DNA of 64,000 nucleotides from Pelagomonas calceolata. Taxonomy: Eukaryota. The translations under genes and the position numbers were made by a program. Positions within the stretch are counted from its first letter, which is position 1; every line of letters begins with the position of its first letter. The DNA lies in the NCBI GenBank assembly GCA_918797485.1, contig CAKKNE010000003.1, forward strand, positions 4,526,001 through 4,590,000, in the 5' to 3' direction. The notes under the pieces were generated by a model, which was not told where the DNA came from, ran no database searches, and was given only the letters and a program-made list of their open reading frames with translations. Of this stretch, positions 1,119-52,187 are shown piece after piece.

Positions 1119-2156
1119 CTATGGCTCGCTTGCGTTGGTGGCCACAAGTAACGGATACATCGCAAAGATCTCACGAAGGCGGCGGCTGAAGTCGCGCAGG
1201 ATCGGCGCGTTCCGGCGGTCGCGCGCGTAATACGCCCGCCGCATCGCCGTCCGGTTCCGTAAATCGTCGAGAACGACCCAGTTCTTGTGGCAGGAATTGA
1301 CTTGGCACGTCGGCCGTTGGTCCAGCCGCGCCAGCTTTTCGATCTTCACGTCGCGGCTGTCCGATTCCTCGATGTAACCGTGACTCACGATGACGTCGTG
1401 CGCCAAGCGAATCAAATCCTCGTAGGTTCTCTGGTGGTAGTGAACGATTGCGAGGCCCTCTGCTTCCGGTGCGGACCGGTTGTGCCAGGCATGGCTCCCG
1501 AGGTTAAAGAATCGCCGTCGGTAGCGTGCCCCACTGTAGATCTGCTTATGCACGCCCGCGCGCGACATCTTGGCATGCTCGCCGTCGGTCGGCGGGCCGC
1601 GTTGGATCGCATCGACGTCGAACGCCCACGCCGTGCGCAGCGTGTCCGAGACGCGCGCCGGCGGGAGGCCGAGCCGCGACGTCGTCACGTCGGGCGCGCG
1701 CGCGCCCTGTGCCACGTGCGCGACGAACTCGTCGGTGTCGACCTTGATGATCCAGTCGTATCGCGCCTTGATCTCGTCGATCCAGCGCGCGAGGTTGTCT
1801 TCGATGTGGTTCAGATCGACGAGGCTGTGGCGGAGGTGGATGGGATAGCTCGCCGTCACGTCCTGGAGGTGGTCTTTTTGGGCGCCCGTGCTGCCGTCGA
1901 ACACGTAAAGGTGCTCGAAACCGTACACGTGCCCGTGCCACGCGAGCCACCGCGACGCCAGCGGCCAGTCGTCCTTCGTCATAATGACGAGGGCGACCTC
2001 GGCGCGGGACGCGCACGCCGGAGCCGTCACGACCGACAGCCTGGATTGCCGACCGACCAAGATGCCCAGTCCCAGGGCGATGCCCAGTGCCGACGCTGCT
2101 ATTATTCTCCAATGGGTAATGCCTCGACACGACGACACACTGGCGGCTGCATGCAT
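1119..2156 (-). CDS. Type II membrane glycosyltransferase, GT2-like (Glyco_tranf_2_4 type)
   Basis: N-terminal TM; WLAWHGHVYGFEHLYVFDGST; WIIKVDTDEF (DxD); start set at ATG 2156 because the upstream ORF part is LTR-derived. Confidence 0.75.
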   Translation of the reverse strand: MHAAASVSSCRGITHWRIIAASALGIALGLGILVGRQSRLSVVTAPACASRAEVALVIMTKDDWPLASRWLAWHGHVYGFEHLYVFDGSTGAQKDHLQDVTASYPIHLRHSLVDLNHIEDNLARWIDEIKARYDWIIKVDTDEFVAHVAQGARAPDVTTSRLGLPPARVSDTLRTAWAFDVDAIQRGPPTDGEHAKMSRAGVHKQIYSGARYRRRFFNLGSHAWHNRSAPEAEGLAIVHYHQRTYEDLIRLAHDVIVSHGYIEESDSRDVKIEKLARLDQRPTCQVNSCHKNWVVLDDLRNRTAMRRAYYARDRRNAPILRDFSRRLREIFAMYPLLVATNASEP

Positions 2157-2239
2157 CGTTCTTTTAAACCGTCGAGATGATGAATATATCCCCAAAAGGC
2201 ACACGGAGCTCCACACTCTGTTTCCCCCTGCATCGCAAA

Positions 2240-2674
2240 AATGGACGCTCGTGTCCAGGGGGAATAGAGAAACCCTGGTAGCGTAAGAGTATGTCGCAGC
2301 GTTATGTAGAGTAGCAGGGTCCCAGCACACCAGCCAAAGGCTGTGCCTACCTACGGTACCTCACGGTACCTACGGTACCTAACTACGAGAGTGTTTTATA
2401 GCAAATTGATACATCGTAGTGCAACGTAGAGAGAAACCTACTAGCCCTCCCTACCCTAGATATGTATCTCCCACTCTCTAAATTTGAGTCTATACATCGA
2501 GTGTCTATCGCACTACGGTGTAAACACAATTCAAGTTCAACTTGAAGTTTGCTATAAAACACTCTCCGAGGCTCGTACTACTAGTAGTAGTTCGGTTGGC
2601 CCAGCCTTTGGCTGGTGAGCTACGAGCCTGTAGGACCCTGCTACTTTACATAACGCTACGACATACTCTTGCTA
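2240..2674. mobile_element. Copia LTR mosaic: PPT plus LTR start (+), inverted LTR 3' part (~2285-2410, -), full LTR 2427-2674 (+)
   Basis: Direct sequence match to LTR 73-281 and to the PPT context at 9786-9808. Confidence 0.85.
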
Positions 2675-2850
2675 AGGTCAACCGTGACTGGTGCAGGGTA
2701 CCGGTACCGGTACCGGTACCGTAGGTATCAAATAAGTTACATCGGTGCACGGGTTTTTGCCGTAGTCTTTTTGCAATTGCACCCAACATGCGGACCGCGG
2801 GGACACTCCTCTTGGCAGTTTTTTACGCCTCACCAGCGGCACATTTCTAA

Positions 2851-4315
2851 ATGCGCATCGCTCCCCTCGTCGCACTCCTTCTTCCCGGCTGCCGCGGCGG
2901 TGGCAAGGCCTCCAAGGCGCTGCTGCGGCAGTTCTGCGCGCGCGGCCTGCTCGCGGTGGACGATAGGCGTGGCGACGCGTGCGTCGATGCAGCGGGCACA
3001 TTCGCGGGCTGCCCGCCGGGCTGCGCGGCGACGACGCGAGGCGGCGGCGGCGCGCGCTGTGTTCACAAGAAACGTCCCTGCGTGGCGCCGGCGCGGACGG
3101 CGTGCGCGCGCGACGGCTGGTGGCTCGAGCAAAGCGACGAGGCGGCGCGCGGCGACGTGTGCCGCAAGCCCGGCGGCGGCTTCGAGTGCCCCGCCGACTG
3201 CGAAAAGCGGAACGCGACGTGCGTCGGCGGCGACAGACGGCCCTGCCGGTCGGCGGCGCGGCCGCCCCGGCGCGCGTGCGCCGATTGCGCCGAGGCGTGG
3301 GACGCGCCGCTCACGGCGGGACCGGCGCTCGCGCGGCGCGTCGACGCGGAGTTCGTCGTGAGCCACTGCGGCTACGACCTGAGGTGGCTCGCCGACGCGA
3401 TGGCGGAGCTGCGCGCCTGCGGCGTCGACGTCCGGCGCACGACCGTCTACTCCAAGTGCGGCCGGCCGCCGCGCAACGCGCCGAACGGGTCGATCCTCGA
3501 GACGCTGCCGAACGTCGGGCGCTGCGACCACGCCTACGCGATGCACGCGGCGCGGCGGTACGACCGCCTCGAGCCGCTGGTCTTCTTCCTCAAGGACTCG
3601 TCGCGCTACGGGTCGCGCGCGGACTACCGCCGGCTCAACGTTGGCCTCTGCGGCGTCGCGCGCGCCGCGGCGGGGCCCGTCGGCTTTGGCTGCGGCCGCC
3701 GGCCCTACGTCGACGGCTCCGCGTACCACTGGGCGCCCGCGCTGCTCGCCTACAGCCTCATCGAGGTCCACGCGCACGCGTGGGACCAGGCGGCGCGGCC
3801 CGCGGCGGCGTTGGACTTCTTTGGGCCGTTCCCGACGCTGGGCGCGCTCCTCGCGGCGACACCTGGCGTCCTGCGCGCTGACGAGCTCCAGCGACGCGCC
3901 GTCGTGCCCGTCTGCTACGGCGGCACGTTCGCCGCAGTGTGGATATCATTGAGCGCGTAGTGACCCTTTCGCCACGACGCCATCGACGAAGGCACCGTAA
4001 TTTTAAGTTCCGCACAGGTTTGCCGCGCGCCGGGCCTCCGTCCGCCGCCGCGCCCGCGCCGCCTACGCGGCGCTCGCGGCGCGCCTTACGCGTGGCGACA
4101 ATATCATGGAGGGTTCCATGGTCGAGAGGCTCTGGGCAGCGCTCCTCGCGCCGCGGCACCCCGACCCGCACGCGCGGGCCCGGCACCTCTGCGCTGCCAC
4201 GCGCCACTTCGCCCGGCCCCACGGGTATGCCGGCATGCTCGTCGGCTGCAGCTGCTCGGCGCCCCGGGGGGACTTGCGGACCTGCGCCGCGAGGCATTCG
4301 CGCGTGGCGACGTAG
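2851..4315 (+). CDS. Secreted protein with Cys-rich repeats and DUF3431-like domain; intron 3927-4017
   Basis: Signal peptide; ETLPNVGRCDHAY and VFFLKD motifs; removing GT..AG intron 3927-4017 joins the frame to MEGSMVERLW (ORF 4106-4315). Confidence 0.75.
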
Positions 4316-5470: not shown

Positions 5471-8101
5471 TTATTGCATTGAGCGCCGCGCCCGCTTTCG
5501 GCTTCGCACGAGGAGCGCGCACGCGAGGCCGGCTGCGATGCCCGCGACTCCGCGTGCTCGCGAGAAGACACTCGGTCGATCTCCGCCGCGGCGGATGTAG
5601 GCCATAACCTCGTCGCCGTGCCGCCTGGAGGCGAGGGCGCACAAGGCCGAATTTTTGCGCGATCGTTCGTACCGCCGCGAGCGCGTGATGTGCGCAAATT
5701 GTGCGCCGGCGTCTGCCTCGGCGAGGAAGACGGCGCTCGTCGCCGTCGCCTCCTGCTCGTCGGGGCCCCGCAGCGTCCAGGAGGCGTAGGGAAAGGCGAG
5801 CTGGTCGCGGCGGTGTCCCCAGCGGCGGTATTCGTCAAACCAGGCGCAGCCGAGCGCCGAACTCTCGTTCCGGTAGAGGTCGCGGAGGTGCCATTCGCCC
5901 TCAGCCAGCGGCGCGTCGCGCGGCAGGCCCGCCGCAGCGTACGCGCGGAGCTGGCTCAGCGCGGCATCCGAAGCAAGGCCCAGCAAGTGGACGCACCGCG
6001 CCTCTTCGTGCGGCGTCCCGCGAGCCGGGTGCCGCGGCGACGTCCACGCGGAACCGCGAGCGAGCAGCTCGTCGTGCAGCAGGCGCCACGTCCACTCGAG
6101 CGTGCTCGGGTGAAGCTTGGCGTCGAAGTAGAGCAGATACCGCGCGTTCGGGACGAAGCGGTGCGCGAGCATCTTCGGAATGCGGGTGTTCTGGGCGGCC
6201 GTCGCGAACGGTTGAAGTGCCTTCGGGACACGCACGACGCGCCACGGTCCGTGGTCAACGCTGTGGCACCGCCGGGCGCCGTGCATCGCGGCGATGCGGC
6301 GAGCCGCCGCGAAGTCGACGAGTGCGATCCAGCAGCTCGCCGCGCCCAGCCTATTCTCGAATTCTAGCAGCCGCGCGTGCTTGGGTTCCAGCGTTTTAAG
6401 GTGCTCCAGCGAGTCGATAGAACCAAAGAGCGCCGTGACGACGGCAAGCGTGCAGCGCCGCCCGCCCGCGGCCGCCGGCGCGTCGAGCGGCGGGTTGATC
6501 GACGAAAATGAGAGGCTTCCCGAGCACTCGCCGTCCCGCGCGCCGTCGCCTGGCGTGTTGCCCAGTTTCGCCCTCAGCGACGCCCTCAGCGACGATCTCA
6601 GCTCCCCCGTGTCCGTGATGTCCTCGACGACGTAGATCTCCCCGGTCGTTGGATTCCGGTGCACGCCGCGCTCGGCGACGACTTGAACCACGCGCGCGCA
6701 CGAGATCCGCCGGAAGCCGCGCGACACGACCGCCTGGATTTGCGTTGATTCAACAAACGCCGCGTGCCGCGCGTCCGCTTTGTCGAGGTCGAGGCAGACG
6801 CTCGGCATGAGGTGCGAGCAGTCCTCGCAATGTCCGAAGCTGTGAACCGCAAGGCTCGAGCCCGCGCGTGGTGGTGGTAGGCACGCGGCCAGCCCCGCGC
6901 CGAAGGCGGCGTGCGCCGCAACGACGTCGCGGCACAGCCTGGAAAGCGCCGCGTCCGTCCGACGCCGCGCGTCGTGGGGGAACGTGAGCGCGAAGATCAG
7001 GCCGAGCCGGTCGGCGACGTCGACGTCGAGCATGAGCGAATCGCGGCCCTCGGCGCGTCGCGCGAGCGCGACGAGCGCCGAGAAAGACGAAAACTGCGTG
7101 CCGACGAACACGGCGGCGCGGAGACCGAGCTCGAAGTCGACCTGGCCCTTGACGTCGTCGCCGCCGTCGGGCCCGGATGCCAGCGCCTCATCGACGTTCC
7201 CCAACGTCGCCTTGGCGTGCAGGCTAAAGCGCGGGCAGCTTCGATGCTTCCGAAGGTCGGCGTCGATTGCCCTGATGCGCGCGCGGTCCGCCTCGCCCAA
7301 GACGAAGACGTCGAGCGTCTTCAACGACGACCGACCGCGCGCGACACCAGCCAGCGCCGTGCACGCAGCGCGCGCGTACGCGCGCGCGTCGAGGCCATGC
7401 GCGCTCCGCACAAAGTCCTCGTCCGCGCGCCAGTGGATCGCGACGGCCGCGTGCTCCTTCGCGCGCCCGGTCGCCGCCGCGAGGCGCCGTGAGACCTCGT
7501 GCGCGGCGCGACGGATGCGCCGCGCCGATGAAAACGCCGCGTTGACGCTCGTCAGGAGGTCGAGGCTCCGGCGCGTGTCAACCACGAGCTTGGTGCAGCA
7601 GTCCTCCTCGCCGCCCAGCGACCAGACGCCGCCCCGAAGGTCGTAGCGCCGCGCGACGTCGCCGCCGGGCCCGAGCTGCGACGCGGTCGTCGGCCAGAGC
7701 GCGCCGGCGAGCTCCGGCGCGCGCCCCTCGCTGCGCGTGTCGACGACGCAGACGCCCGCCCTTCGGAGGCCCTCTACCACCCTCTCACGATCGTAGACGG
7801 CGTCGAACGGGACCGTGCCTTCGTAGTCCTGGTAGCAGCCTGCGCGGTAGCCGCACCGCCGCCGCGTTCGGAGAAAGGAAGGCAGCTCGACAGCCGCGCC
7901 GAGCAGCGCCGCGATAACCGCGTCCTGGACGATGCGCATCCGCTGGTTGTTCAGGCCCTTGCGCACCGCCGGAATTCGGACGACGCCGCTCACGCCTGCA
8001 CCGCAGGTTGTTGCGGCGTGGTAGGCCGGCGCAACGGCCGGGCAGGCGGGCGACGGCGCCGCTGCGGCAGCCGCCGCCAGCGTAAAGAACACCGGCCCCA
8101 T
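5471..8101 (-). CDS. O-fucosyltransferase-like plus DUF616-like glycosyltransferase fusion, C-terminal TM
   Basis: 876-aa ORF with signal peptide; GLNNQRM, AIHWRADEDF, FVGTQFSSFS (O-FucT); VVTALFGSID, YLLYFDAK, RRDQLAFPY (DUF616). Confidence 0.8.
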   Translation of the reverse strand: MGPVFFTLAAAAAAAPSPACPAVAPAYHAATTCGAGVSGVVRIPAVRKGLNNQRMRIVQDAVIAALLGAAVELPSFLRTRRRCGYRAGCYQDYEGTVPFDAVYDRERVVEGLRRAGVCVVDTRSEGRAPELAGALWPTTASQLGPGGDVARRYDLRGGVWSLGGEEDCCTKLVVDTRRSLDLLTSVNAAFSSARRIRRAAHEVSRRLAAATGRAKEHAAVAIHWRADEDFVRSAHGLDARAYARAACTALAGVARGRSSLKTLDVFVLGEADRARIRAIDADLRKHRSCPRFSLHAKATLGNVDEALASGPDGGDDVKGQVDFELGLRAAVFVGTQFSSFSALVALARRAEGRDSLMLDVDVADRLGLIFALTFPHDARRRTDAALSRLCRDVVAAHAAFGAGLAACLPPPRAGSSLAVHSFGHCEDCSHLMPSVCLDLDKADARHAAFVESTQIQAVVSRGFRRISCARVVQVVAERGVHRNPTTGEIYVVEDITDTGELRSSLRASLRAKLGNTPGDGARDGECSGSLSFSSINPPLDAPAAAGGRRCTLAVVTALFGSIDSLEHLKTLEPKHARLLEFENRLGAASCWIALVDFAAARRIAAMHGARRCHSVDHGPWRVVRVPKALQPFATAAQNTRIPKMLAHRFVPNARYLLYFDAKLHPSTLEWTWRLLHDELLARGSAWTSPRHPARGTPHEEARCVHLLGLASDAALSQLRAYAAAGLPRDAPLAEGEWHLRDLYRNESSALGCAWFDEYRRWGHRRDQLAFPYASWTLRGPDEQEATATSAVFLAEADAGAQFAHITRSRRYERSRKNSALCALASRRHGDEVMAYIRRGGDRPSVFSRARGVAGIAAGLACALLVRSRKRARRSMQ

Positions 8102-10366: not shown

Positions 10367-13282
10367 ATGGGCAGCGTGCTCTTCTGGTGCATCGCGGTCA
10401 ATGCAGCTGCGGCAGGCTGCGGTCGACGCCTCCTCCGTTCCCGGGTGATTGGGCTGATGGCAACGAAAGACGACGCGAAGGTGATGGCAGAGTGGCTGGA
10501 GCATAACATGGGTTCGCTGGCTGGGCTCGCCGTGTTTGACTCATCGCGTGGGACGGAGACGCAGTCGGTGATTGAAGCGTACGTGACGCGCTGCGGCGCC
10601 AACATCACGTACCACCGCGAGGACGAGCTCGCGGCGCCACTGGTCTCGCATTCGGACCAGGCGGTGCGGTACTGGCCGCTCCGCGCGCTCCGCGAGCGCT
10701 GGGGCGTCGGGCGCTGGGTGATGGTGGCGCACGCGGACGAATTCTGGTACCACGAGCCGGAGTTGGTGGCACGCGCTGCGGACACGCGCATGGAAGCGGG
10801 TTTGATGCCCCGCTGTCAGGTCGTCTCGTGGTACGCGCCGCAGGTCGTGCCCCACCCTTCGGAGTATGAGCGCTACATAAGGTCCAGGCGCCAACCGGTG
10901 CAGACGCTCTTTCAGCATTTCCACACGGACGCGCCGGGCGAACTCGTGAAGTTGGAGGCGCGACTGTTCCTCGACGACGGTCGCGACTATGTTGCGAACT
11001 CGACTGCACGACAGGGAACTGTACCCGCCGGCCTTACACCCTGTCGCCTGACGGGCCCGGCTTACCTGCACTACAAGGTAGTGGACCCGGACCCGGCAGT
11101 ATATGACTCACAGGGCCGGCACAGGTCGCATTGGACTGGACACGGCGCGCCCGGCGTCGGCTTCGGGCATGACGTGTCGTCGATCCGAGATTTTTTCGTC
11201 GAACACTTCCGTCGCTTCACCCGCGTGTACCGGTTTGAAGGCTGCCTCTCGGCGCTGGTCCCCGAATTTCCAGGGCTCGCCGACTTTGAGCCGCTACGAG
11301 TCGACCGCGTTTGGCCACTCGCGGTGGGAGATGGCACCGCCTGCCCAACAACACGGCTCCTCGTCGAGGTCGACGCCGCGGCGGCTGCCTACGACCAGTG
11401 GCGCGCGTCGCACTTCGACCGGCGGTTCGCCGGCGTGCGTCGCTGTCGCGTGGGCGGTCTAGAGTACCGCATCGCGGGCGGCCATAAGCGCCTCGGCAAC
11501 TGCGTCTCGACGGTTGACCACCACGCCGTCGGCTTCGACGCCGCGCCCGTGGTGCCGTTCGTGTGCCCGAGGGGCAAGCTCCGGATCCTCGGCGAGCCCG
11601 GGTCCCACAGCGAGAAGCACGTCTGCGCGCTCGACGCGCTCATCGCGCAGCCGCGGCCCTGCGTATTTATCTCGGTCGGCAGTTCGGGGAACTTCGTCTT
11701 CGAGGCGGAGATTGCGCGCCTGACACCGGCCCGGTGCGCGATCGAGACGTTCGACTGCACCGGCACTTGGTCCGTGCCCAAGGCGCTTGTCGGGCGGGTT
11801 CGCCTTCACCAGGTCTGCCTCGACACCGTCGACCACTGGGGTCCGTCGCCGGCGACGTCGGAGCACCTCCGGCGGATGATGACGCCGCCCGCCGTCGAAT
11901 TCCTAAGTTGGCCGTCGCTCCTTCGGCGCGCCGGATTGCCACCCGGCGTCCCACCTACCTTTCTGAAGATGGACTGCGAGGGCTGCGAGGCGACGTTCTT
12001 CCGCGCGCTCGCGCGCGCACCGCCCGCGCTCCGGCAGACGCTGCCACCTCAGATCGCCGTCGAAGTCCACTACCCCTTCAGAGAGGACAAATGGGCGGCA
12101 TTCTTTCGTCGTGTCTCGCCGTTTGCACGCTGGCCGCTCGAAGAGTTTGTCGCCGAGCTCCGCGCCGAACTCGGATACTTCATCGCGGACCGAAACGACT
12201 GCGCCCCACAATGCTGCTCCGAACTGCTTCTCGCAAGGACTCTCGCCCCCCCGGCACCGTCGACGGCGATCATGTCCGCCGCGTTAGCGCGCGACGACAC
12301 GAGATGCCCGCCGGGCCCGCGAGGCGGCGTCGCCGCGCTCCAGGCGCTCGAGCTCGGAACAGGGGAGGCGGATGTGCTGCTCTCAATCGTATTGCCCACG
12401 TACAACGCGCAACCGGGCGACGTACGCCGGCACGTCGTGGCCGTCGCGCGCGCGTCGCGCTCTGCCGTGGAGCTCGTCGTCGTCGACGACGGCTCAGCGC
12501 CGGCGCTTACGCCCGCGGAGGTCGGGCTGGATCGCACTGCATCGAAGATTCGCTACAGGTTCGCCCGTATTACGGTCGACATTCCCTGGAACGTCGTCGG
12601 CGCGAAGAATCTCGGTGCAGCCCTCGCGCGTGGCCGGTGGCTCCTGTTCCTCGACGCCGACATCGTCGCGCCCGCCGGCGCCATCGACGCTATGGTGGGT
12701 CGACTCGAGGCTGGGGGTGATCTCGCGGCTGGCGACGCCTGGGTGTTCGCGCGGCGGCAGGCCGGGGGCCAAATCATGGCCCGAGGACCGCACCCGGCTG
12801 TGGTACTCCTCCGGCGCTATGACTTTTGGGCACGCGTCGGAGGAATGGCCGAGGACTTTGCCGGGTCATGGGGCACGGAAGACACCCTCTTGAAAATGCA
12901 AGTGAAACTCTTGACACCTCGCCCCACCTTCGAGCCCGGCATCGTTCTTCCCGTCGCGCCCAAAGTCATTCTTGACCAGCACCGCTTGCGCTCGAGACCA
13001 AATTCCACTGGAAAACCTGCGCGCAATGGCACGCGCAACCGGTTGCTTCTCATCGATCTCACGAGAGAACGTGTCGAAAATAGCGCCACCTATGACCCGC
13101 TTGTGCAGTGTGTCCTCCGATTCCCGTACGAGCTCTTCGAAGAAGGTGGCGCGCCGGTAGTACTGGTCAACGCCAAGGTGCGCCGCGTGTCCACGTCAGC
13201 GACGACAGTGTATTGGACCGTCGTCACTACTGTGCTTTTGTTCATCGTCATGAGGTGCTGGAACGCACGCAATATCCACTGA
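10367..13282 (+). CDS. Tri-domain protein: GT2-like + SAM methyltransferase (Methyltransf_22/FkbM-like) + GT2/GT7-like, C-terminal TM
   Basis: 971-aa ORF; VMVAHADEFW; EKHVC..FISVGSSGNFVFE..TFDCT..FLKMDCEGCE; VVVDDGS, LFLDAD, GGMAEDFAGSWGTED. Confidence 0.8.
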   Translation: MGSVLFWCIAVNAAAAGCGRRLLRSRVIGLMATKDDAKVMAEWLEHNMGSLAGLAVFDSSRGTETQSVIEAYVTRCGANITYHREDELAAPLVSHSDQAVRYWPLRALRERWGVGRWVMVAHADEFWYHEPELVARAADTRMEAGLMPRCQVVSWYAPQVVPHPSEYERYIRSRRQPVQTLFQHFHTDAPGELVKLEARLFLDDGRDYVANSTARQGTVPAGLTPCRLTGPAYLHYKVVDPDPAVYDSQGRHRSHWTGHGAPGVGFGHDVSSIRDFFVEHFRRFTRVYRFEGCLSALVPEFPGLADFEPLRVDRVWPLAVGDGTACPTTRLLVEVDAAAAAYDQWRASHFDRRFAGVRRCRVGGLEYRIAGGHKRLGNCVSTVDHHAVGFDAAPVVPFVCPRGKLRILGEPGSHSEKHVCALDALIAQPRPCVFISVGSSGNFVFEAEIARLTPARCAIETFDCTGTWSVPKALVGRVRLHQVCLDTVDHWGPSPATSEHLRRMMTPPAVEFLSWPSLLRRAGLPPGVPPTFLKMDCEGCEATFFRALARAPPALRQTLPPQIAVEVHYPFREDKWAAFFRRVSPFARWPLEEFVAELRAELGYFIADRNDCAPQCCSELLLARTLAPPAPSTAIMSAALARDDTRCPPGPRGGVAALQALELGTGEADVLLSIVLPTYNAQPGDVRRHVVAVARASRSAVELVVVDDGSAPALTPAEVGLDRTASKIRYRFARITVDIPWNVVGAKNLGAALARGRWLLFLDADIVAPAGAIDAMVGRLEAGGDLAAGDAWVFARRQAGGQIMARGPHPAVVLLRRYDFWARVGGMAEDFAGSWGTEDTLLKMQVKLLTPRPTFEPGIVLPVAPKVILDQHRLRSRPNSTGKPARNGTRNRLLLIDLTRERVENSATYDPLVQCVLRFPYELFEEGGAPVVLVNAKVRRVSTSATTVYWTVVTTVLLFIVMRCWNARNIH

Positions 13283-27105: not shown

Positions 27106-27131
27106 CCTGTCTCTATAATCGCGCTGGTAAG

Positions 27132-36444: not shown

Positions 36445-37020
36445 ACTACGGTACCTACGGTACCTACGGTACCTACCTACGGTACGGTACCTGCGGTACC
36501 TAGCTCTACGGTACCATGGTGCCTATGGCAGCTGATGGCGTGCAATGGCTGGCCCTACGTCGCACGTCTTAATTTGAATTCTTGAACGCACTTGCAGTCC
36601 AGTTTTGGGTACACCTCCTCAAACAACTGCACAATCCGTGGCAATCCGTGGCTTGTCCGGCCGGCGCGCCATGACGCCCGACGCCGACGAGCCAGCGCCC
36701 GCTGCTCCTCCGTCCGCGTCGCGCGCCGCGTCCGCTCGAAATCTTACAAGTACCGTGCTCTTTACGCGCCGCGGCGCGGGCCTCCAAAAGGGAGTCGCCC
36801 AGCAGTGCGCCTCGCGGCCCAGGATTGGCGCGGAAGAAGGAGGTCTTCGTCGCATCTAAACCGTTGCCGCGCGCCTTAGCCACGCGCCGCAGCGACCTGT
36901 CTCAGCGGCACACCCGCGCAGGCGCTTCGGTGCGCGGCCGCGCCTCGAGTCATCATTTTGTTCGCGCGGGCCGGACGATGAGAGAATCGCGACCTCACGG
37001 TCACGGCCGAATTTGATAGC

Positions 37021-39599: not shown

Positions 39600-39674
39600 A
39601 GTCGCTCCGGAGCTGACGAGGGCGTCGCCTTGCGGACGGGGGCGCGAAGCTCGTAAGGGGTATGTAGGCAGTTT

Positions 39675-40451
39675 CTAGAAGCGGGGGTTGAGGATGCCGA
39701 CGCGCTCCGTCAGGCCCGTCGCGCTCGCGTCGAAGCGCGTCGGGCGCAGGTGCAGGACGGCGGCGAGCGCCGGGAGCGCGCCCGCCTCGGCGGCCTCCCG
39801 GTGCGTCCAGGATTGTGTAGCGCCGTCGCCGAACACGCGCGCGAGGGGCGCGTCGTCGGCGAGCGGCGGTAGTTCAAGCGGCCGCGCGTCGAGGGCCAGA
39901 AGGTGCTGGTAGTTGTGCGAGGCGGGCTGCATGTCCAACGCCGTGGACACAAAACACTTGAGCGAGGGCACCGCCGGCGAGAAGAAGGCCCGGGCGGTCC
40001 GCGACGCGTAGCCGCCGAACCCGGGCACCGCCTCGCGGAGCAGCTCGAGCTGCTCGTCCGAGCCGTCGTGCACGACGACGCGGGCCTCGGCCTCGTTCAG
40101 CGCGTCCCGGACGCCACGGGCGCCCAGCGCCGCGTCCACCCGGCAGCTCACGACGCCGGACACGGCGGCCGCCAGTTCGATGCAGTGCTGCTCGGGCGCG
40201 TCCGGAGAAAGCAGGCTCGCGACGGCGTCGCCCGCCTGGACGCCGAACTCCGCGAGCCCGCGCGCCAGACCGTCGCCGTAGCGCTTCGCGTCGCGCACGG
40301 TCCACTTCATCGCGCCGTACTGGAGCACCTCCGTCTCGCCACGATCCTCAACCAAGTCCGCAAGCCGCGCGCGCAGTGCTCCGAGGCCCCGTCGCGGCGC
40401 CGCGATAACAGCTGCGCGCGGCGCGGCTTTGCGGAGGGCCCGCGCGATCAT
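39675..40451 (-). CDS. Short AMP-binding/acyl-CoA synthetase-like protein, probably mitochondrial
   Basis: Arg/Ala-rich presequence; WTVRD..LARGLAEFGVQAGDAV; no clear catalytic P-loop. Confidence 0.6.
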   Translation of the reverse strand: MIARALRKAAPRAAVIAAPRRGLGALRARLADLVEDRGETEVLQYGAMKWTVRDAKRYGDGLARGLAEFGVQAGDAVASLLSPDAPEQHCIELAAAVSGVVSCRVDAALGARGVRDALNEAEARVVVHDGSDEQLELLREAVPGFGGYASRTARAFFSPAVPSLKCFVSTALDMQPASHNYQHLLALDARPLELPPLADDAPLARVFGDGATQSWTHREAAEAGALPALAAVLHLRPTRFDASATGLTERVGILNPRF

Positions 40452-40649
40452 CCTGTGGTGCGCTTATCACCCTCGAGGTCTCCAAATGCTGTCGACGTAG
40501 TAAACCCGCGAGCTCTGGAGGCTCGAGGCTCAATCGCCAGTGAATTATCTGAATCGCCAGTGAATTATCTGAGCTCCCCACGAGCCTAGCGGGCTGAAAG
40601 ACTCTAGCGAACATCACCCTGCAGCTGAGCCCAGGCACCCAGCCCAGGC

Positions 40650-42287: not shown

Positions 42288-42582
42288 CTCCCTGGCCATG
42301 CTGTGTGTTTATTTTCTTGCCTGCCTGCCACGGCGGGCAAAGGGGAATTTTAGGTCTGGTGATTGATTCGGGGGCCGGAGAGGTCTGTTTAAATCTTGAA
42401 AATGCCATCCACCTCGGGGCCCTACGGTTCCTCGGCCTACGCGGCTCCCCCCCGCTGTCGCGGTGTAGGAGAGAGCGCAAGCCCTGGGAGACCTGAATTT
42501 TCTCATTTGGGAGGCTCCCTGGATCATGGGGGTTTCAAAAGCTTTTCAGGTTTTCTATGGCGCCGCAAACATCCCAGTGGGG

Positions 42583-42660
42583 CACACTATTTCGTTAGAC
42601 TACGACACTACGCTGCCGGGGAAGTCCAGAATTACACACCCTATTTCCCCCTGCATCGCA
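42583..42660 (+). repeat. Interspersed repeat ending in CCCCCTGCATCGCA
   Basis: Also at 53185-53262, with shorter copies at 935-967 and 2205-2237. Confidence 0.75.
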
Positions 42661-42905
42661 GTCGCGGGGGGGCGGCTCCGAGTCGGGGTGGGTACCCAGT
42701 CACGGTGCGCGCGCGGCCCGCCGGGTAATTTAGGAGAACTCGGAGTAGAATTTTTTTACTATACACTTCTTGAATAATATGGAGCCCCGCTCAGGGCTAG
42801 CGGCTTCAGACACTAGCTCCGTTATTACCAGTAGTAGCCAGCCTTTTAGCAACGCGCTCGTCGCACACTGACCCTGCGCGAAGACTACAGATCCAGGAGC
42901 CACGG

Positions 42906-43523
42906 ATGGCGCTCGCCCAACGGCTGTGGAAGGCCATGAGCCGCCATTACCAAAAGAACGTCGCCGGGCGAGTATCCCTGCCTCCCCGTAGACGCCAAGC
43001 GCTCGCGGCACGCGCCGGCTCCGACGACGACGCGTTCGAGAGCCGGCTCCTCGCGCGCGCCTCGCCGCCTCGACGCGCGCCGCCGCAGGTCCCTCTCCGA
43101 GTTCGGGCTCAAGTACGACGACATAAGAATTGAAAGTGATGCGGACTACGCAAAGGCCCTCGACCGCCTGCAGCAGCGTGTGCAGATCAAATTTCACGCG
43201 CCTTCCGCGCCACTCGTCGAGAGAATCTCTACGTCGCACAACCGTCCGCGCCAGCAGCACGACCGCATCGCCGCTGTAGAAAGGAATTGTGAGAACTTAT
43301 TCGCGGATATACCGCACTCACCGGTTTACACGCAGGCCTGCCGCACGCGGAGCTCCAGCTACGCGCGCGGCGCATGAAGCGCGCCTTCGACGTGTCCTTC
43401 AAGCGCAAGGCGCTGCCGCCCGACCTGCGGGCGCTGCAGAAGCCTCTCGAGGGCTACGCGGGGCCCCTGATCGAGGAGGCGAAGGCCCGTCGGGTGGAGC
43501 GCGAGCTGCTCAACACCTTCTAA
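42906..43523 (+). CDS. QCR7: Cytochrome bc1 complex subunit 7 (14 kDa); introns 42968-43088 and 43166-43335
   Basis: Spliced product ...YQKNVAGSLSEFGLKYDDIRIESDADYAKALDRLPHAELQLRARRMKRAFDVSFKRKALP...; two GC-AG introns. Confidence 0.85.
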
Positions 43524-43537: not shown

Positions 43538-44374
43538 TTAGTACTTCTCTTTCCAACTACACTCCCACCGGTGGACCGTGATGGAGGCGCCCGTCGCGCC
43601 GCCGGTCCCGTCGTTCGCCACGGGGTAAAGGATGGTCTTGGGGAGGCAGGCGCAGTCCCACGCGCGGCGGAAGTAGACTCGCGTGAGGAGCCCGGGGCCC
43701 GTCGTCTCTATTGTCCTCGCGGCGCTGGCTTCCGCCAGTACCTTGCCGAGGGTCGCGCCGAACCCGCTCGCGGCCACGAGCGCCGCCGCGCGCGTTTTGG
43801 CCACATCCTCCGCCGCGACCGCGGCGTCGCACGCTTCGACGAGCGCCGCCATCAGCGCGCAACCGGGCGCGCAGCCCATGACCGCGTTGCCGACCTCCAA
43901 GCCGCGGACGTTCGCCAGGCCGACGAACGCATTACATTTGCGAAGGAGCGGCTCGAAGCTCCGCACGAAGTCCACGTCCACGTCCGCGTAGACGCCGCCG
44001 TGCACGAACAGTATGTAGTAGCGCGCGACGTCGCTTTTGGCGGCCCAGTCGCGCGCTTTTGCGAACGCGCGCCGCGCGCCGCGGTTCCCCCCCAGGAGCG
44101 CCGCGACGGCCGCGCCGCGCCACAGCACGCGGGTCCAGCCCGGGTGTATCCGGCAAAAGGCGGCGCCGCGCTCGATCAACGAAGGCGGCACCGGGCGCGG
44201 CCCGAGCCAGATTTGATGAAGCACGCGCGGAATGCTCTCCGCCGTCGCCGGCGTCCGTCGGAAGGCCTCGTAGTCGCCCGCGAGGCGCGCGAGCCAGGCG
44301 TCTTCGTTGTCCCCCCAGAGGTTGCTCCTTGGGATTTGCGGTGCCTCCCAGGGGGGCCAGTCTCGAGCCTCCAT
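43538..44374 (-). CDS. GT32 (DxD sugar-binding) glycosyltransferase
   Basis: IPRVLHQIWLG; KSDVARYYILFVHGGVYADVD; TTGPGLLT. Confidence 0.85.
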   Translation of the reverse strand: MEARDWPPWEAPQIPRSNLWGDNEDAWLARLAGDYEAFRRTPATAESIPRVLHQIWLGPRPVPPSLIERGAAFCRIHPGWTRVLWRGAAVAALLGGNRGARRAFAKARDWAAKSDVARYYILFVHGGVYADVDVDFVRSFEPLLRKCNAFVGLANVRGLEVGNAVMGCAPGCALMAALVEACDAAVAAEDVAKTRAAALVAASGFGATLGKVLAEASAARTIETTGPGLLTRVYFRRAWDCACLPKTILYPVANDGTGGATGASITVHRWECSWKEKY

Positions 44375-46704: not shown

Positions 46705-47617
46705 ATGACGTCGCTGGCCGAGTCGTTGGACAGCGTCGGCGAGCGCATCGTCGACTGGGCGCTCGTCGGGTCGCCCGTGACGGACGCGCCCGTCCGGGGT
46801 TGGCCGCTGGCCAGGTTCTCGACGGCGCTCGCCATCGCCGTGGCTTACCTCGCCTTCGTCGTGTTAGGCTCACTCTTCGCGCGCGCGACGCCGGGCGAGG
46901 GCGTCAAGTCGCGCGCGGCGCGGAAATCAACAACCTCAAGCGTCAACTTCCACGCCGTCGATGCGAGATTCTCTTTGCAATTGCGTCTGCTCGATGCAGG
47001 GCTGACGATCGATTGCTGCGCGCAGGTTGTACGGCGTCGCGTTCCTGTACAACATCTGCCAGGTCATGCTCTGCTCCTACATGTGCCTCGAAGCGGCCAT
47101 CGTGGCCCGGCGGCACGACTACAACTTGGTGTGCAATTCCTTCAAGAGCGAGAACCCGCCCGTGGCGAACGTCCTCTGGCTCTTCTACGTGAGCAAGATC
47201 CTGGATTTCGTGGACACGTTCTTCATCGTCATCGGCAAAAAATGGAAGCAGCTGAGCTTCCTGCACGTGTATCACCATACCACCATCTTCCTCTTTTACT
47301 GGTTGAATCTGCACGTGAACTACGACGGCGACATCTATTTGACGGTGGTCTTAAACGGGTTGATCCACGCGATCATGTACACCTACTACTTCGTGAGCAT
47401 GCACACGCGTGACATCTGGTGGAAGAAGTACCTCACGCTCGCGCAGCTCTTCCAGTTCACGTGCATGAACGGCCAGGCCCTGGTCCTCTACGCGACGGGC
47501 TGCTCCGACGCGCCGCCGCGCGTCACGGGGTTGTACTTCGTCTACATCGTCTCGCTCTTCGTGCTGTTCCTCCAGTTCTTCGTCGCGAGCTACGTACCCA
47601 AGGCGAAGGCGGCATGA
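46705..47617 (+). CDS. ELO-family fatty acid elongase; intron 46908-47025
   Basis: FYVSKILDFVDT; LSFLHVYHH; HAIMYTYY; splicing gives GEGVK-LYGVAFLYN. Confidence 0.92.
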
Positions 47618-48200: not shown

Positions 48201-50346
48201 TCACGCCCTGAAAGCACTTCTTGCACTGGAAGTAGGAGGCCTTGCCGCCATAGGCGAATTCGAAGGCTGGCTGGGGAGACGCGCGCGGAGGCGAGCGACG
48301 TCGGCCCGTAGTGCCGCGTTCTCCGCGGTCAACAGAGCGACCCGTGCGGAGAGCAGCGCGTCCTCCGCGGCGGAGAGCGGCGCGTCCTCCGCTGCGGAGA
48401 GCGGCGCGTCCTCCGCAGCGGAGAGCGACGCGTCCTCCGCGGGGGATGGGAGCGCGGCATCAGCCACGGGGTTCGACGCGTCCCAGTCCCAGTCCCAGCC
48501 CAGGAGGTCGTGGAGGAGGCGCTCGTGCCAGAGCAAGTCCTCGGCCATCTGCGGCTCGAAGCCCAGCAGAGCCATGGTCGCGTTCGGATCGTTCAGGACG
48601 TGGCGCGCCTCTTTCTTGTGCTCCTCGACATTCTTGTGGCCCGCGCCTTCGTTCTTGAACTCGGCGTACGGGTCCGCGTGGATCCAGCGCGGCTCCATGC
48701 CCAAGAACGAGGCGAGCGCGGGGCCGCACGTCGTCTCGCCGAGGCAGCGCTCGAAGCGCAGCACGAAGACGTGGTCCGCGCCCCAGAGGCGCTGGAAGAG
48801 CTCGACCGCGTAGACGTAGTGGACGAGCTTGAAGTACGATGCCTGGGTCTCGGACACCTGCAGCTTCCGCAGAGCGAACGGGGACGCGACGAACGAGCAG
48901 CCGCGCTTGTCCCACAGGCCCGGATCCGACCGCGCGTCGGCGGGGCAGCCCGCCTGTCTGAGATCCTTCATCAGCTTGGACCAGTTCTGGCGGAGGTAGC
49001 TTGCGCGGCCGTCCGCGTCGACGCGCGCCGCGAAGTTCCACCTGGGTGGCAATCAAAGTATTCCAAGGTCACCGCGACATGGGTCCAACGAATCCGTCGT
49101 CTGAACGAGGTGACATGCCTAGGCGAACTCCATGAGGACGTCAACAGCTGTCCGCCCGTGAAAGAACGAGCGACATCGACCGGGGGGAAAGGGCCGAGAT
49201 ATGGAGCTTTTTTAATGTTTCAGGCCGGTCTCACTCGGTGGTTGATTTCCACGCGGAGTCCCGCGGGTGCCGCGTCGAGAGGACGATTTTCGCCGCGGGG
49301 GCCTTGTAGTGGATGCTCAGCATGACCTCGACGCGCGTGTGGTAGTCGGGCGTCTTGTCGACGAACCAGCGCGGCGTCCTGTCCGCGGGGCCGTCGTAGT
49401 ACCGCAGGCCCGCGCCGTCGACGCAGCGGTCCGCTGTGGGCGCGTCGCACGCGCACAGCCCGGGGCGGTCGTACCCCGCGAGCGACTTGGAGAAGCGCCG
49501 CAGGTAGTCGCCGTACTGCACCGAGCCCTTGCCGTTGCCCTTGAAGTACAGGCCCTCGCCCGGATGGCCGTCGTTTCCCTCGGCGCCGACGACCAGGTGC
49601 CCCGGCACGCTCTTCGCGAGGCCCGCCCGCAACGACGTCGTGCCCGAGCGGCTCCAGCCCGCGATGAACACGTTCGGCGACGCGAGCCGCACGAGCGCGC
49701 CGCCGACCTGGGTGGAAATCAAAAGTTCAAGGCCACTGCAACTTGGGTCAAACGAACCCGTTTCGACCGTGGATTGTCAATCATAATAAAGAGGATGTCC
49801 GCAGCTATCTGCTCGTGAAGAAACGAGCCATCGACCGAGAAACAGCCGAGATATGAATACTTTCGATTCGGGTGAACACCAAACTCAGTGGTTGATTTCC
49901 ACACAGCCGCCGACGCGGACGCACGCGCGCTGGTCGTCGAGTTTCAGCGACGCGACGCGCCTCGCCGTGGCGTTGACCATCCACGGCTCCACCTCGACGG
50001 GCACGAGGCCTCGCGCGCGGGGCTCCGCCGCCGCGTACGCGTCGCCGCCGCCGTGGAAGGCCTCGACCGCGCACGACTCGAGACGCGGCGCGTCCGAGGC
50101 GACGCTCAGGCGCTTGCCGCCCTCGCCGCGGAGTCTGCGGCTCCAGGACGCGACGAGCCGCCTCGAGCGCCGCGCGCGGCACGGCGGCCGGCGGAAGACG
50201 GCGGCGACGAGCAGCAAAGCGGCCGCGCCGCGCGCGGACCGACGCATTGCGCGCCACCGCCGACGCGGCGACCGCGGCGAGCATGGGCTCGTTTCATCCG
50301 CCTCGACGCTGTCCTCGGCGAGGACCACCTGCAGCTTTTCCGCCAT
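48201..50346 (-). CDS. Membrane sulfotransferase-like protein; introns 49708-49914 and 49042-49264
   Basis: PNVFIAGWSRSGTTSL; VDKTPDY; AKIVLSTRHP; VFVLRFE; both introner removals restore the frame; SAAEDAPL repeats near the C terminus. Confidence 0.8.
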
Positions 50347-50857
50347 CCTTCGCTCTATCTAGCGTTTCGCTGCGCGGTGTTGCAGCAGCGCTGACAGCTG
50401 ATCTATAGAGACCAGCACCCGCGCTCCCAGCGCGTAAATGGCAGCACGCGGCGCGCCTGATCTCTGCCTCTCGCGCCAAAGCGGCAGTCAAAACGCGTGC
50501 GGCAAGGACGCGAGGGACGCTAGGTAGTAGGCGTCGGCGAGCACTACGCAGTAAATACAAGCCTCCTTACAACAGAAAAAACCGGAGCAACCGGGGAACC
50601 CCGCGTGACACGACAAGAGCTGGGCCATCTAGCGGCGACGCAGCCCGCGGCCCTGGTCGTGTATCTCTCCGAGCGCCGCCGCCCTCGCGCCGTCGCCGAG
50701 GTGACGTACTCCGAGCACGCGCTCCCATCAAACGCGGGCGTCCTGTTCGTCGACAGGGAACGCGACATCGCCCTAGATGCGCACGGCCTGTGGTCCTACA
50801 TCTAGCCCAGGGCCCGCCGAGACCTCGAGGGCGCGGGGGCAAGGGTGGTCAAGCCCG

Positions 50858-50918
50858 GATAGCTCCCCCGTCACCCCTCTAGGCGCGCGCCCCCGCAACC
50901 CGAATTGACTATAGCTAT
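50858..50918 (+). mobile_element. 3' end of the putative non-LTR element
   Basis: Identical to 24775-24836. Confidence 0.75.
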
Positions 50919-50981
50919 CTATAATACGGTACCGTACCGTAGGTATAGAAGCCTAGTACCGTAGGTACGCAGTAACCAAAA

Positions 50982-52187
50982 ATGTCGCCTTGCGGGCAGC
51001 CCTCCGCGCCTGCAACAATGCGTCTAGCGCTGGCAGTCGTCCTGGCCTGCTGCAGCGCGGTCCATCGCGACTACCAGGGTGCCCCCGTCGTGATCGGCCT
51101 TAGGCTAAACGCCACAGAGGAGCTAAACATTACAGCGAAGCTGCTGACGTGCCGGGCGGGGGCCGGGACGCCCAACTTCGCGGCGAGTCGTGCGGCCGTC
51201 GAGCGGCTGCATGGCGAGATGTGGCCCGTGCGGCTGCGCGGGATGTTCAACGTCGGGTCGCACTACGTGTATGAATTAATGAAGCACCGAGTGCCTGTCA
51301 CGATGTTCAACCCGGGAGGTTGGTATGGACCGGAAGGCTGCTTCCGCTGGAAGCATATGCCGCTTAACGTGGACACCGCACGCAAGCGAGGCGCGTGCCG
51401 CACCGAGGCGGCGGTGCCCGTTAATGAATTGCATCTCGTCGTTGCGCGCCACCCGCTGTCGTGGCTGCTTTCGATGCGCGGAGCGTCGTATTCATTTCGT
51501 TGTGTGTGTCAATCAAATTCATCTATCACAGGATGCTGGGAGGCGGGCTGCTCGAAGTCGGAGATCGACCACAGGAACTGCATGGCGGTGCCCAAGCCGC
51601 GAAATGGTCCAGGGGCAAATTCGACGCTGAGCGTCGCGGCGATGCTGCGCGGCCCCTGCGAGCTCTTCAGCACGGACGGGCACTTCGGGCCCCTGCGCGT
51701 GGCTTATGATGGCGCGTTCGAGCTGTGGAATAGATTTTACGGGGACTTTGTGGACCTCGCCGCCGCGTCGCCGAACGTGCTCGTGCTGCGGTACGAGGAC
51801 ATCCTGCGCAACGAAACCGGCGCCATCCGCGAGATCGCCGCGCGCGCGCGCTGTGCCCTCGACGCGAAGTTCGCCCAGACCTCGGGCAAGAGCCTCGTCC
51901 CGCGGAAGGTCGGGCCGCAGGTGGCGCACGGGGACCTGCCCTCGAAGGCGGTGCAGCTGAATCAGGCCTGGCGCGCCTCTTGGTCGCAAGCCGAGCTTCG
52001 CACGGCGTGCCGCCTCTTCGACGCGCGAGTGATGGCACGGCTGCGATACACGTGCGATGACGCAAACGTATCCGCCGACTCGGGCCGCCCGCCGCACGCG
52101 CGGTGTGACGAGACGGTGCAAAAGCTCGCCGCGCTCGCGCTCGAGGCGGGGGCCGAGCCGGCGGCGGTGCGAGCCGTGACGGGGTAA
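50982..52187 (+). CDS. Secreted sulfotransferase-like protein
   Basis: Signal peptide; LRGMFNVGSHYV; WKH; VVARHPLSWLLS; LRYEDIL. Confidence 0.65.
   Translation: MSPCGQPSAPATMRLALAVVLACCSAVHRDYQGAPVVIGLRLNATEELNITAKLLTCRAGAGTPNFAASRAAVERLHGEMWPVRLRGMFNVGSHYVYELMKHRVPVTMFNPGGWYGPEGCFRWKHMPLNVDTARKRGACRTEAAVPVNELHLVVARHPLSWLLSMRGASYSFRCVCQSNSSITGCWEAGCSKSEIDHRNCMAVPKPRNGPGANSTLSVAAMLRGPCELFSTDGHFGPLRVAYDGAFELWNRFYGDFVDLAAASPNVLVLRYEDILRNETGAIREIAARARCALDAKFAQTSGKSLVPRKVGPQVAHGDLPSKAVQLNQAWRASWSQAELRTACRLFDARVMARLRYTCDDANVSADSGRPPHARCDETVQKLAALALEAGAEPAAVRAVTG

What the first reader, a model, noticed from the sequence alone, without database searches (positions are those of the whole stretch)
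1119..52187. Island of ~17 surface-glycan modifying genes alternating with TE-debris spacers
Seen: 13 consecutive recognisable genes from 1.1 to 35.7 kb are glycosyl-, methyl-, acetyl- or sulfotransferase-like or DUF3431-like, and four more follow to 52 kb. Most have signal peptides or TM anchors and few introns. Base composition varies visibly: 22844-26616 is less GC-rich than 32533-35682. After 53 kb genes are densely packed housekeeping types. Known: Ostreococcus outlier chromosomes are rich in such genes and linked to virus resistance. Inference: a hypervariable cell-surface locus assembled from mixed sources.
Basis: partly seen in the sequence, partly recalled or inferred. Interest (0 to 1): 0.75.

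Follow-up and report, generated by a model that had tools for sequence, protein, structure and literature searches.

The report
Alga's optional surface-sugar gene island
In a very common open-ocean alga, 13 neighbouring genes and four nearby ones, predicted to add sugars, methyl, acetyl or sulfate groups, sit among transposon scraps, and ten of the thirteen measured are scarce in wild seawater DNA, so strains likely differ in how they decorate their cell surface, possibly to evade viruses.

Summary
The cluster is real. The window matches a Pelagomonas calceolata chromosome-3 locus. Thirteen consecutive glycosyl-, methyl-, O-acetyl- or sulfotransferase-type genes fill 1.1-35.7 kb. Four more lie among six ordinary genes up to 52 kb. 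Spacers take 38% of the island against 11% downstream and hold Copia-like LTR debris. The predicted coverage trough exists, gene by gene. In 2-3 ocean metagenomes from separate studies, 10 of 13 measured glycan genes reach 0-0.38 of housekeeping contig depth; three are core. Scarce genes are the low-GC3, CpG-poor ones. A wild contig 98% identical to the window lacks one 2.1-kb sulfotransferase cassette (empty site), and a sister lineage lacks all three downstream sulfotransferases. All laid genes are transcribed. Best reading: an additive, cassette-wise flexible island for surface-glycan decoration inside an ordinary chromosome arm. It resembles Mamiellales small outlier chromosomes and bacterial glycosylation islands in content but is not a member of either. 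Donors were not found (nearest relatives 39-54%; one groups with a haptophyte-labelled sequence; no close viral or bacterial match). Surface role and virus link are inferred. I found no description in ten literature searches.

The parts
1119..2156 (-). g1: GT2-like (Glyco_tranf_2_4), N-terminal membrane anchor; population depth not measured
   Evidence: Pfam E=6e-6; 315-member cluster, median 96% identity among 14 compared
2851..4315 (+). g2: Cys-rich N-terminus plus DUF3431-like domain, one intron near 3940-4017; distant paralogue of g13; depth not measured
   Evidence: DUF3431 E=0.2; 31% identity to g13; frames
5471..8101 (-). g3: O-fucosyltransferase-like plus TOD1/MUCI70 GT, N- and C-terminal hydrophobic segments; core-like (relative depth 0.91, indirect)
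   Evidence: Pfam; depth read from g3-specific letters on its 146-bp copy
10367..13282 (+). g4: GT2_4 + Methyltransf_22 + GT2 fusion; depth not measured
   Evidence: Pfam, NCBIfam
14288..15432 (+). g5: GT2-like, split over two frames near 14650-14770 (intron or frameshift unresolved); depth not measured
   Evidence: 30% identity to the g4 GT2 domain
16694..18748 (+). g6: Methyltransf_11 + TylF O-methyltransferase, intron about 18384-18530; accessory (0.25)
   Evidence: Pfam; splice in 101 reads and depth
19177..21762 (-). g7: DUF6492-like + GT4; accessory (0.38)
22844..24175 (-). g8: membrane-anchored SAM methyltransferase; accessory (0.24); one non-self relative (39%)
25477..26616 (+). g9: PC-esterase/TBL-type O-acetyltransferase; accessory (0.09); lowest GC3 (0.57); mostly antisense RNA
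27354..28676 (+). g10: PC-esterase/TBL-type O-acetyltransferase; accessory (0.21)
28767..28912 (+). Decayed inverted copy of the 3' end of g3 (94%) inside a spacer
29643..30491 (-). g11: Methyltransf_24-like; accessory (0.38); nearest named relatives are haptophyte-labelled (50%, 46%)
30980..32047 (-). g12: Stf0-like sulfotransferase; accessory (0.11)
   Evidence: Atlas 0.95
32533..35682 (+). g13: Cys-rich + DUF3431-like + C-terminal GT-A domain, both ends hydrophobic; core (0.96)
72..680 (+). Copia-like LTR-family copies with PBS-like motif at 282; further copies near 2285-2674, 9512-10218, 13880-13986, 27126-27319, 30642-30713, 36085-36473
   Evidence: self-alignment and motif positions; PBS label recalled
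36172..36411 (+). Copia-type reverse-transcriptase fragment (FVDD) between two LTR-family pieces
   Evidence: RVT_2 E=0.023, one of 5 weak hits among 108 spacer peptides; bin depth about 70x unique DNA in clonal run X3
24445..24856 (.). Second repeat family (also 5115-5313, about 48050, 50857-50918, and in L002); multi-copy in the genome
   Evidence: bin depth 1145 vs 34 in X7
36670..43522 (.). Core ordinary genes: unknown, UROS (HEM4), AMP-binding, unknown, QCR7; used as depth controls
43538..44374 (-). GT32-type DXD glycosyltransferase; core (1.02), present in the sister lineage; no N-terminal hydrophobic segment
44457..46597 (-). Insertion cassette of about 2.1 kb: MITE-like repeat (about 44575-44930) plus sulfotransferase 45215-46387; absent in L001; depth 0.00
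   Evidence: PDB best hits heparan-sulfate 3-O-sulfotransferases, E=5e-17
46705..47617 (+). ELO fatty-acid elongase; core control with low overall GC (0.57-0.60)
48201..50340 (-). Intron-containing sulfotransferase, host-like GC3 (0.87); accessory (0.29); Aureococcus match listed for its counterpart
   Evidence: Sulfotransfer_3 E=6e-10
50982..52187 (+). Sulfotransferase-like protein (P-loop fold), N-terminal hydrophobic segment; accessory (0.23)
   Evidence: PDB E=0.13 only; SSF52540 in the published table

Best explanation
This is a variable gene island inside a Pelagomonas chromosome arm, where ten predicted glycan-modifying genes are scarce in wild populations next to fixed ones, and it likely lets lineages decorate their cell-surface sugars differently. 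Shown: the cluster, the repeat-rich spacers, transcription, the gene-by-gene depth trough and one empty site. Inferred mechanism: (1) single genes with a scrap of transposon DNA are inserted between fixed glycosyltransferase genes, probably at breaks repaired with, or recombining through, the abundant LTR and MITE copies; (2) the proteins enter the ER/Golgi and add methyl, acetyl, sulfate or extra sugars to a backbone made by core enzymes, most likely for the theca or outer coat; (3) each cassette is gained and lost on its own, giving many combinations; (4) low GC3 and CpG reflect arrival from other eukaryotic algae and/or little recombination in rarely paired DNA; (5) selection by viruses or grazers that recognise the coat keeps cassettes at low to middle frequency. 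Step 5 is the weakest (about 0.45).
For: Depth relative to housekeeping controls: g6 0.25, g7 0.38, g8 0.24, g9 0.09, g10 0.21, g11 0.38, g12 0.11 (mean of 3 metagenomes, 3 studies); sulfotransferases 45215 0.00, 48201 0.29, 50982 0.23 (2 metagenomes). g3 0.91 (indirect), g13 0.96, GT32 1.02; five housekeeping genes 0.88-1.29. GC bias runs the other way: in clonal DNA X3 the scarce genes are deep (bin 650, piece 543) and two GC-rich core pieces are shallow (201-261), and low-GC ELO is at core depth in seawater. Deep core contigs are about 99% identical to the window, so they come from the same species. L001 (98%) joins 44456 to 46598 through about 30 nt; L002 (82-92%) has SF1, the 53429 gene, ELO and GT32 adjacent with none of the three sulfotransferases. 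Depth differs between neighbours (X9: g11 9.7, g12 0, g9 1.1, g7 9.9), which fits separate cassettes. Depth tracks composition: GC3 rho 0.83 (n=18); among 13 glycan genes CpG o/e rho 0.82. RNA run X21 shows sense reads on all laid glycan genes. Hydrophobic N-termini in 13 of 16. Same gene order in the published annotation, flanked by dynein heavy chain and UROS. In the related alga Aureococcus some resistant strains block virus attachment and the glycocalyx is proposed as the barrier (passages).
Against: Contig word depth is not a share of cells and the tool warns that a hole proves nothing; several values are bin means, not contig pieces. There is no genome-wide background: I cannot say how rare low-depth genes are elsewhere on the chromosome. 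Only one empty site is conspecific. What non-carriers hold between g5 and g13 is unknown, and an X9 contig links g6 to g7 (18275-22017), so some cassettes travel together. No terminal repeats or clean target duplication bound the 2.1-kb cassette, so TE-driven movement is unproven. Substrates of the methyltransferases are unknown. No sugar transporter or nucleotide-sugar enzyme is in the island. No virus isolated on P. calceolata turned up. Linked genes are not independent points in the correlations.
Confidence: 0.7

Rival explanations
1. A neutral landing pad: a low-recombination spot that tolerates insertions and collects transposon scraps and dispensable genes; the genes drift and are not balanced by enemies.
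For: TE debris, a captured g3 fragment, a split g5, antisense RNA over g9 and low frequencies all fit relaxed selection. The distal chromosome-3 arm is GT-A-rich more widely (20 of 110 in 600 rows).
Against: A neutral sink would not pick 13 glycan-type genes in a row. Frames of 0.85-2.6 kb are intact, near-invariant among carriers and transcribed.
Confidence: 0.13
2. Ecotype marker: a minority lineage of the species carries the block as a fixed adaptation (light, depth, nutrient), and the low depth only reflects that lineage's share of the samples.
For: g6-g8, g10, g11 and two sulfotransferases have broadly similar depth within a sample (X7 6.6-12.4), and g6-g7 are linked on one wild contig.
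Against: Depth still differs several-fold between neighbours (g9, g12 and sulfotransferase 45215 near zero in X9 where g7 and g11 are near 10), which one lineage marker would not give.
Confidence: 0.1
3. A biosynthetic gene cluster for one small glycosylated, sulfated metabolite or glycolipid.
For: Tailoring enzymes are co-located; TylF-type and GT4 domains occur in natural-product pathways (recalled); an ELO elongase lies nearby.
Against: No PKS, NRPS or terpene-synthase domain among the 43 ORFs scanned. Genes are not co-inherited, and expression spans about 3 to 430 reads deep. Most have secretory-type N-termini.
Confidence: 0.04
4. An integrated giant-virus or bacterial segment, or assembly contamination.
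For: Lower GC, few introns; the published table lists prokaryotic matches for 5 of 10 island genes with a match against 2 of 30 on the left flank.
Against: Viral scans for six island proteins gave no close relative: none for g1, g6, g7, g8 and <=42% (best segments) for g11 and sulfotransferase 45215. Bacterial relatives of g11 are 29-38% over long matches. g11 falls in a eukaryote-type clade. Host-type introns and poly(A) RNA are present. The table's match column looks not to be the true best hit, since its E-value mantissas cluster near 9.
Confidence: 0.03

Closest known systems
Small outlier chromosome (SOC) of Mamiellales, e.g. Ostreococcus tauri chromosome 19 (PMC5082852, PMC5498103; passages read)
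   Same: Enriched in glycosyl- and methyltransferases, lower GC, transposon remains, strain-variable content, in a tiny marine alga.
   Different: Here it is a 35-50 kb island inside a 5.4-Mb chromosome of a stramenopile. Variation is single-gene presence/absence with one empty site, not tandem duplication and massive rearrangement. It has acetyl- and sulfotransferases but no sugar transporters or epimerases. No virus link is shown.
Flexible (metagenomic) genomic islands for surface glycosylation in marine bacteria such as Prochlorococcus and SAR11 (recalled; mentioned in PMC5498103 discussion)
   Same: Under-recruitment in metagenomes between conserved core flanks; glycan-modifying cargo of low sequence similarity to known proteins.
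   Different: Eukaryotic, separately transcribed genes in mixed orientation with secretory-type N-termini and introns; spacers are LTR/MITE debris; no tRNA anchor or integrase; additive at the one site resolved, whereas bacterial glycotype islands are typically replaced as a block (recalled).
Aureococcus anophagefferens accessory genome (10.1101/2024.10.30.620910; parts 1-4 of 7 and term passages read)
   Same: Pelagophyte with intraspecific gene-content variation, expressed accessory genes, many highly divergent.
   Different: That text reports no clustered glycan island ('island' 0, 'sulfotransferase' 0, 'glycosyl' 1 occurrence), used one P. calceolata strain and screened only prokaryotic and viral transfers.
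Low-GC centromeric regions of P. calceolata (PMC9481584, section 7 and Supplementary Note 4 read)
   Same: Lower GC than the genome and more intergenic DNA.
   Different: Those are about 259 kb at 52% GC with long intron-rich cell-division genes and 18% intergenic DNA; this locus is short, intron-poor, 38% spacer and glycan-specific.

Membership tests
Mamiellales small outlier chromosome | A separate small chromosome (100-400 kb) | tested here: not met
   Proteins lie on a 5.39-Mb contig; ordinary genes flank both sides in the published order
Mamiellales small outlier chromosome | Over-representation of glycosyl- and methyltransferases | tested here: met
Mamiellales small outlier chromosome | Sugar transporters and NAD epimerase/dehydratases | tested here: not met
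   none among 43 ORFs scanned
Mamiellales small outlier chromosome | Lower GC and more transposon remains than the rest of the genome | tested here: met
   spacers GC 0.53, accessory genes 0.55-0.68; 38% vs 10.6% spacer
Mamiellales small outlier chromosome | Strain-specific content | tested here: met
   10 of 13 measured glycan genes at 0-0.38 relative depth; empty site L001
Mamiellales small outlier chromosome | Tandem duplications and large internal rearrangements | tested here: not met
   only two paralogue pairs at about 30% identity and one 146-bp gene fragment; other strains' structure not seen
Mamiellales small outlier chromosome | Expression or size linked to virus resistance | not testable with these tools
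   no infection data; no P. calceolata virus system found
Bacterial flexible glycosylation island | Metagenomic under-recruitment between conserved core genes | tested here: met
   (contig depth, not raw reads)
Bacterial flexible glycosylation island | Replacement by alternative clusters at the same locus | tested here: inconclusive
   one site is empty rather than replaced; the g6-g12 interval of non-carriers was not recovered
Bacterial flexible glycosylation island | Operon-like layout, tRNA or integrase anchor | tested here: not met
   mixed strands; 0 tRNA; 0 Rfam hits; no integrase domain
P. calceolata centromeric low-GC region | About 259 kb at 52% GC, long intron-rich genes for cell division | tested here: not met
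Endogenous giant-virus element | Viral hallmark genes or close viral relatives | tested here: not met

The most novel reading that the evidence does not exclude
Pelagomonas has independently evolved a combinatorial 'glycotype' locus: horizontally acquired algal genes are plugged in as single cassettes between fixed glycosyltransferases and kept polymorphic by virus pressure, so that one of the ocean's most abundant eukaryotes varies its coat the way bacteria vary O-antigens, with the glycosyltransferase-rich distal arm of chromosome 3 acting as an intrachromosomal counterpart of the Mamiellales immunity chromosome.
Probability: 0.35. Interest if true: 0.82.

Novelty: new variant of a known kind. 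Interest (0 to 1): 0.62.

Why it matters
How huge plankton populations coexist with lytic giant viruses is an open question, and a genetic basis is known mainly for green picoalgae. A compact, annotated, expressed set of presence/absence cassettes in a stramenopile makes the constant-diversity idea testable with existing ocean metagenomes: cassette frequencies can be tracked per sample against virus abundance. It would also show convergence on variable surface glycans in bacteria, green algae and stramenopiles, and that a single P. calceolata reference hides gene-content variation.

Tried and rejected
No whole genome was held, so no chromosome-wide repeat or paralogue census was possible. RIP-like mutation in spacers: TpA is raised (rho 1.22) but the substrate index is similar in island and downstream spacers (0.91, 0.87, 1.00); not pursued. 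Spacer peptides: 108 of 220 were scanned in Pfam; 5 weak hits, only RVT_2 makes sense in context. Subtelomeric or centromeric position: rejected from the published gene order. A second candidate cluster near Pca_2p02000 is not a cluster on the side read. Joints in the laid contigs (e.g. 18924 to 24676) have 30-nt or shorter sides in repeats and were not used. Cluster sizes were not used as frequencies because only 40 members are read. The 'Best match NR' column (5 of 10 vs 2 of 30 prokaryotic, Fisher p=0.006) was kept as a lead only, because its E-values look string-sorted and my own g11 search found closer algal relatives. PDB searches for the 50982 protein and the g13 C-terminus were uninformative. 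No terminal inverted repeat bounds the 2.1-kb cassette. The careful g11 tree did not finish; the quick tree is cited. Three look-ups of earlier scan findings returned nothing. No structure or complex prediction was run.
Full report
Host and position. Introns of the introner type and GC-rich housekeeping genes point to a pelagophyte (the intron label is recalled, and introners are reported for the species). Most window proteins are on record on a 5.39-Mb contig and have many ocean-metagenome relatives. The published Pelagomonas calceolata annotation lists the same domain order as Pca_3p24770-25040. To the left lie one unknown gene, a dynein heavy chain and ordinary genes, and chromosome 3 runs on for several hundred genes to the right. 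The locus is therefore internal, and it is unlike the centromeric low-GC regions.

The observation. Thirteen consecutive genes at 1.1-35.7 kb are GT-, methyltransferase-, PC-esterase-, sulfotransferase- or DUF3431-like. Nine have Pfam hits at E<=0.01 and four rest on weaker evidence. Four more follow to 52.2 kb among six ordinary genes. GT-A genes are 110 of the first 13,336 table rows (110 of 121 listed were read; the file is cut). The densest 15-row window for them is this locus (4 genes, scan p=0.02). A run this rich is not expected by chance (2e-5 per genome at an assumed 5% background, 8e-3 at 10%). Thirteen of 16 proteins have a hydrophobic N-terminus, against 0 of 5 controls.

Spacers. 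They make up 38% of 1-36.7 kb, 32% of 36.7-53.4 kb and 10.6% beyond; the genome figure outside centromeres is 11%. A roughly 200-bp family recurs about a dozen times, three times beside a Copia-type primer-binding motif, and once around an RT fragment. Spacer bins reach 15-33 times core depth in metagenome X7 and about 70 times in clonal DNA at 36.0-36.7 kb, so they are genome-wide repeats. Repeats also occur in spacers near 52.7-54.7 kb, so the difference is one of amount.

The key test. I chose runs with the housekeeping stretch 54-64 kb (20 of 24 listed runs hold half or more of it) and laid three of its eight DNA metagenomes, one clonal DNA run and one RNA run on 17.7-56 kb. Using long near-identical contig pieces where listed and gene-internal bins otherwise, relative depth is 0.09-0.38 for g6-g12 (3 studies) and 0.00, 0.29 and 0.23 for the three downstream sulfotransferases (2 studies). 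It is 0.96 for g13, 1.02 for GT32 and 0.88-1.29 for five housekeeping genes. g3 could be read indirectly: five variant letters on its 146-bp copy are the g3 letters, at 0.65-1.32 of core depth. So 10 of 13 measured glycan genes are scarce and 4 of 17 are unmeasured. GC bias does not explain this, because clonal DNA is deeper on the lower-GC genes and ELO is at core depth. The measure is contig word depth, which the tool says is no share of cells, so the numbers rank genes only roughly.

Structure of the variation. Of 16 ELO-related loci fetched, two are close enough to compare. L001 (98% identical) runs from GT32 to ELO with about 30 nt where the window has a 2.1-kb cassette of a MITE-like repeat plus sulfotransferase. 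L002 (82-92%, a sister lineage) has SF1, the 53429 gene, an inverted ELO and GT32 with no sulfotransferase between them, which favours gain in this lineage. Where accessory genes occur they are nearly invariant (median 98.9-99.9% for g7-g12; g1 96%, g3 98%; up to 14 members compared each). One wild contig links g6 and g7, while g9 and g12 drop out where neighbours do not. The picture is cassette-wise presence/absence inside a fixed scaffold.

Expression. Poly(A) run X21 shows sense reads on every laid glycan gene, about 40-430 deep for most and 3-20 for g13, against about 35 for SF1; the g6 intron is spliced in 101 reads. g9 has about six times more antisense than sense reads. This run matches the window's genotype closely and is not evidence for other strains.

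Origin. Scarce genes are the least host-like: depth correlates with GC3 (rho 0.83, n=18) and, among 13 glycan genes, with CpG o/e (0.82) and inversely with CpA/TpG (-0.91). Nearest non-self relatives are distant: g8 39% (1 hit), g10 39-45%, sulfotransferase 45215 54%, g11 53%. No close hit lay on a host-sized chromosome, within their length and word limits. g11 sits in a eukaryote-type clade, sister to three sequences of which one is labelled Tisochrysis (SH-aLRT 99, quick tree of 70 rows); an Emiliania cluster is 46% identical. Viral and bacterial relatives are weaker. The 48.2-kb sulfotransferase has host-like codons, introns and a listed Aureococcus match. Transfer from other algae is plausible for some genes but not demonstrated; loss of GC-biased conversion in rarely paired DNA could add to the signal.

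Mechanism. Shown: clustering, repeat-rich spacers, transcription, depth trough, one empty site. Inferred: break- or repeat-assisted insertion of single-gene cassettes; action in the secretory pathway on coat glycans (pelagophytes have a Golgi-made theca, abstract start only); independent gain and loss; maintenance by viruses or grazers. For the last step the only support is analogy: SOC expression and size track virus resistance in Ostreococcus, some Aureococcus strains block attachment, and pelagophyte-associated giant viruses are inferred in ocean data.

Comparison and novelty. It works like a Mamiellales SOC or a bacterial glycosylation island but fails defining features of both (separate chromosome, transporters and epimerases, tandem amplification; operons, tRNA anchor). 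Ten searches found no description of this locus. The genome paper's main text and Supplement 2 contain neither 'glycosyl' nor 'sulfotransferase', nor does a 2026 physiology paper, and the pangenome preprint has no 'island'. The library lacks most subscription journals. Read: PMC9481584 passages, section 7, Supplement 2 part 1 of 2, parts 96 and 240-242 of Supplement 4 plus term searches; the preprint parts 1-4 of 7 plus passages; passages only of PMC5498103, PMC5082852, PMC10720644, PMC7811142. Bacterial island biology is recalled.

Verdict. A real, variable glycan-gene island in an abundant open-ocean alga; a new variant of a known kind. Confidence 0.7 in the island-with-surface-role reading, about 0.45 that viruses drive it. 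Interest 0.62.

Noticed in passing
Published annotation rows 8613-9212 (distal chromosome 3, includes this locus): The distal arm of chromosome 3 holds 20 of 110 GT-A genes in 600 rows (scan p<0.0002; 16 and p=0.003 without the island's four). The genome paper also notes centromere-type repeats and Hi-C contacts at the end of chromosome 3. The whole arm may be an outlier region.
   Followed up: partly
window 25038-26500: g9 (plus strand) has mostly antisense RNA (192-253 vs 10-42 reads deep) and no minus-strand ATG ORF of 120 aa or more. It could be silencing or a switch.
   Followed up: partly
window 28767-28912: A 146-bp inverted copy of the 3' end of g3 with 9 changes sits in a spacer, which suggests fragment capture within the island.
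   Followed up: yes
window 14650-14770: g5 changes frame here; 17 possible GT/GC-AG introns restore it and none is clearly right.
   Followed up: partly
L001 1-300 and L002 2800-3640 against window 42900-43070 and 46900-47030: Intron polymorphism: the first QCR7 intron is shorter in L001, and the ELO intron is absent in the sister lineage L002, where ELO is also inverted.
   Followed up: no
window 8163-8830: A GC-rich stretch with two overlapping minus-strand ORFs (167 and 180 aa) and no Pfam hit lies in the g3-g4 spacer; gene remnant or TE piece.
   Followed up: no
window 4443-4521 and 52628-52703; 22021-22600; 44575-44930: MITE-like hairpin elements with short terminal inverted repeats, of at least three kinds.
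   Followed up: no
window spacers, e.g. 9452-9503, 10012-10045, 36446-36515: Short tandem GGTACC/TACCTACGG runs sit at the joins between repeat pieces, possibly filler from break repair; TpA is raised in spacers (rho 1.22).
   Followed up: no
Published annotation rows 3 and 11806: The first gene of chromosomes 1 and 5 is a Methyltransf_24 gene, the same family as g11.
   Followed up: no
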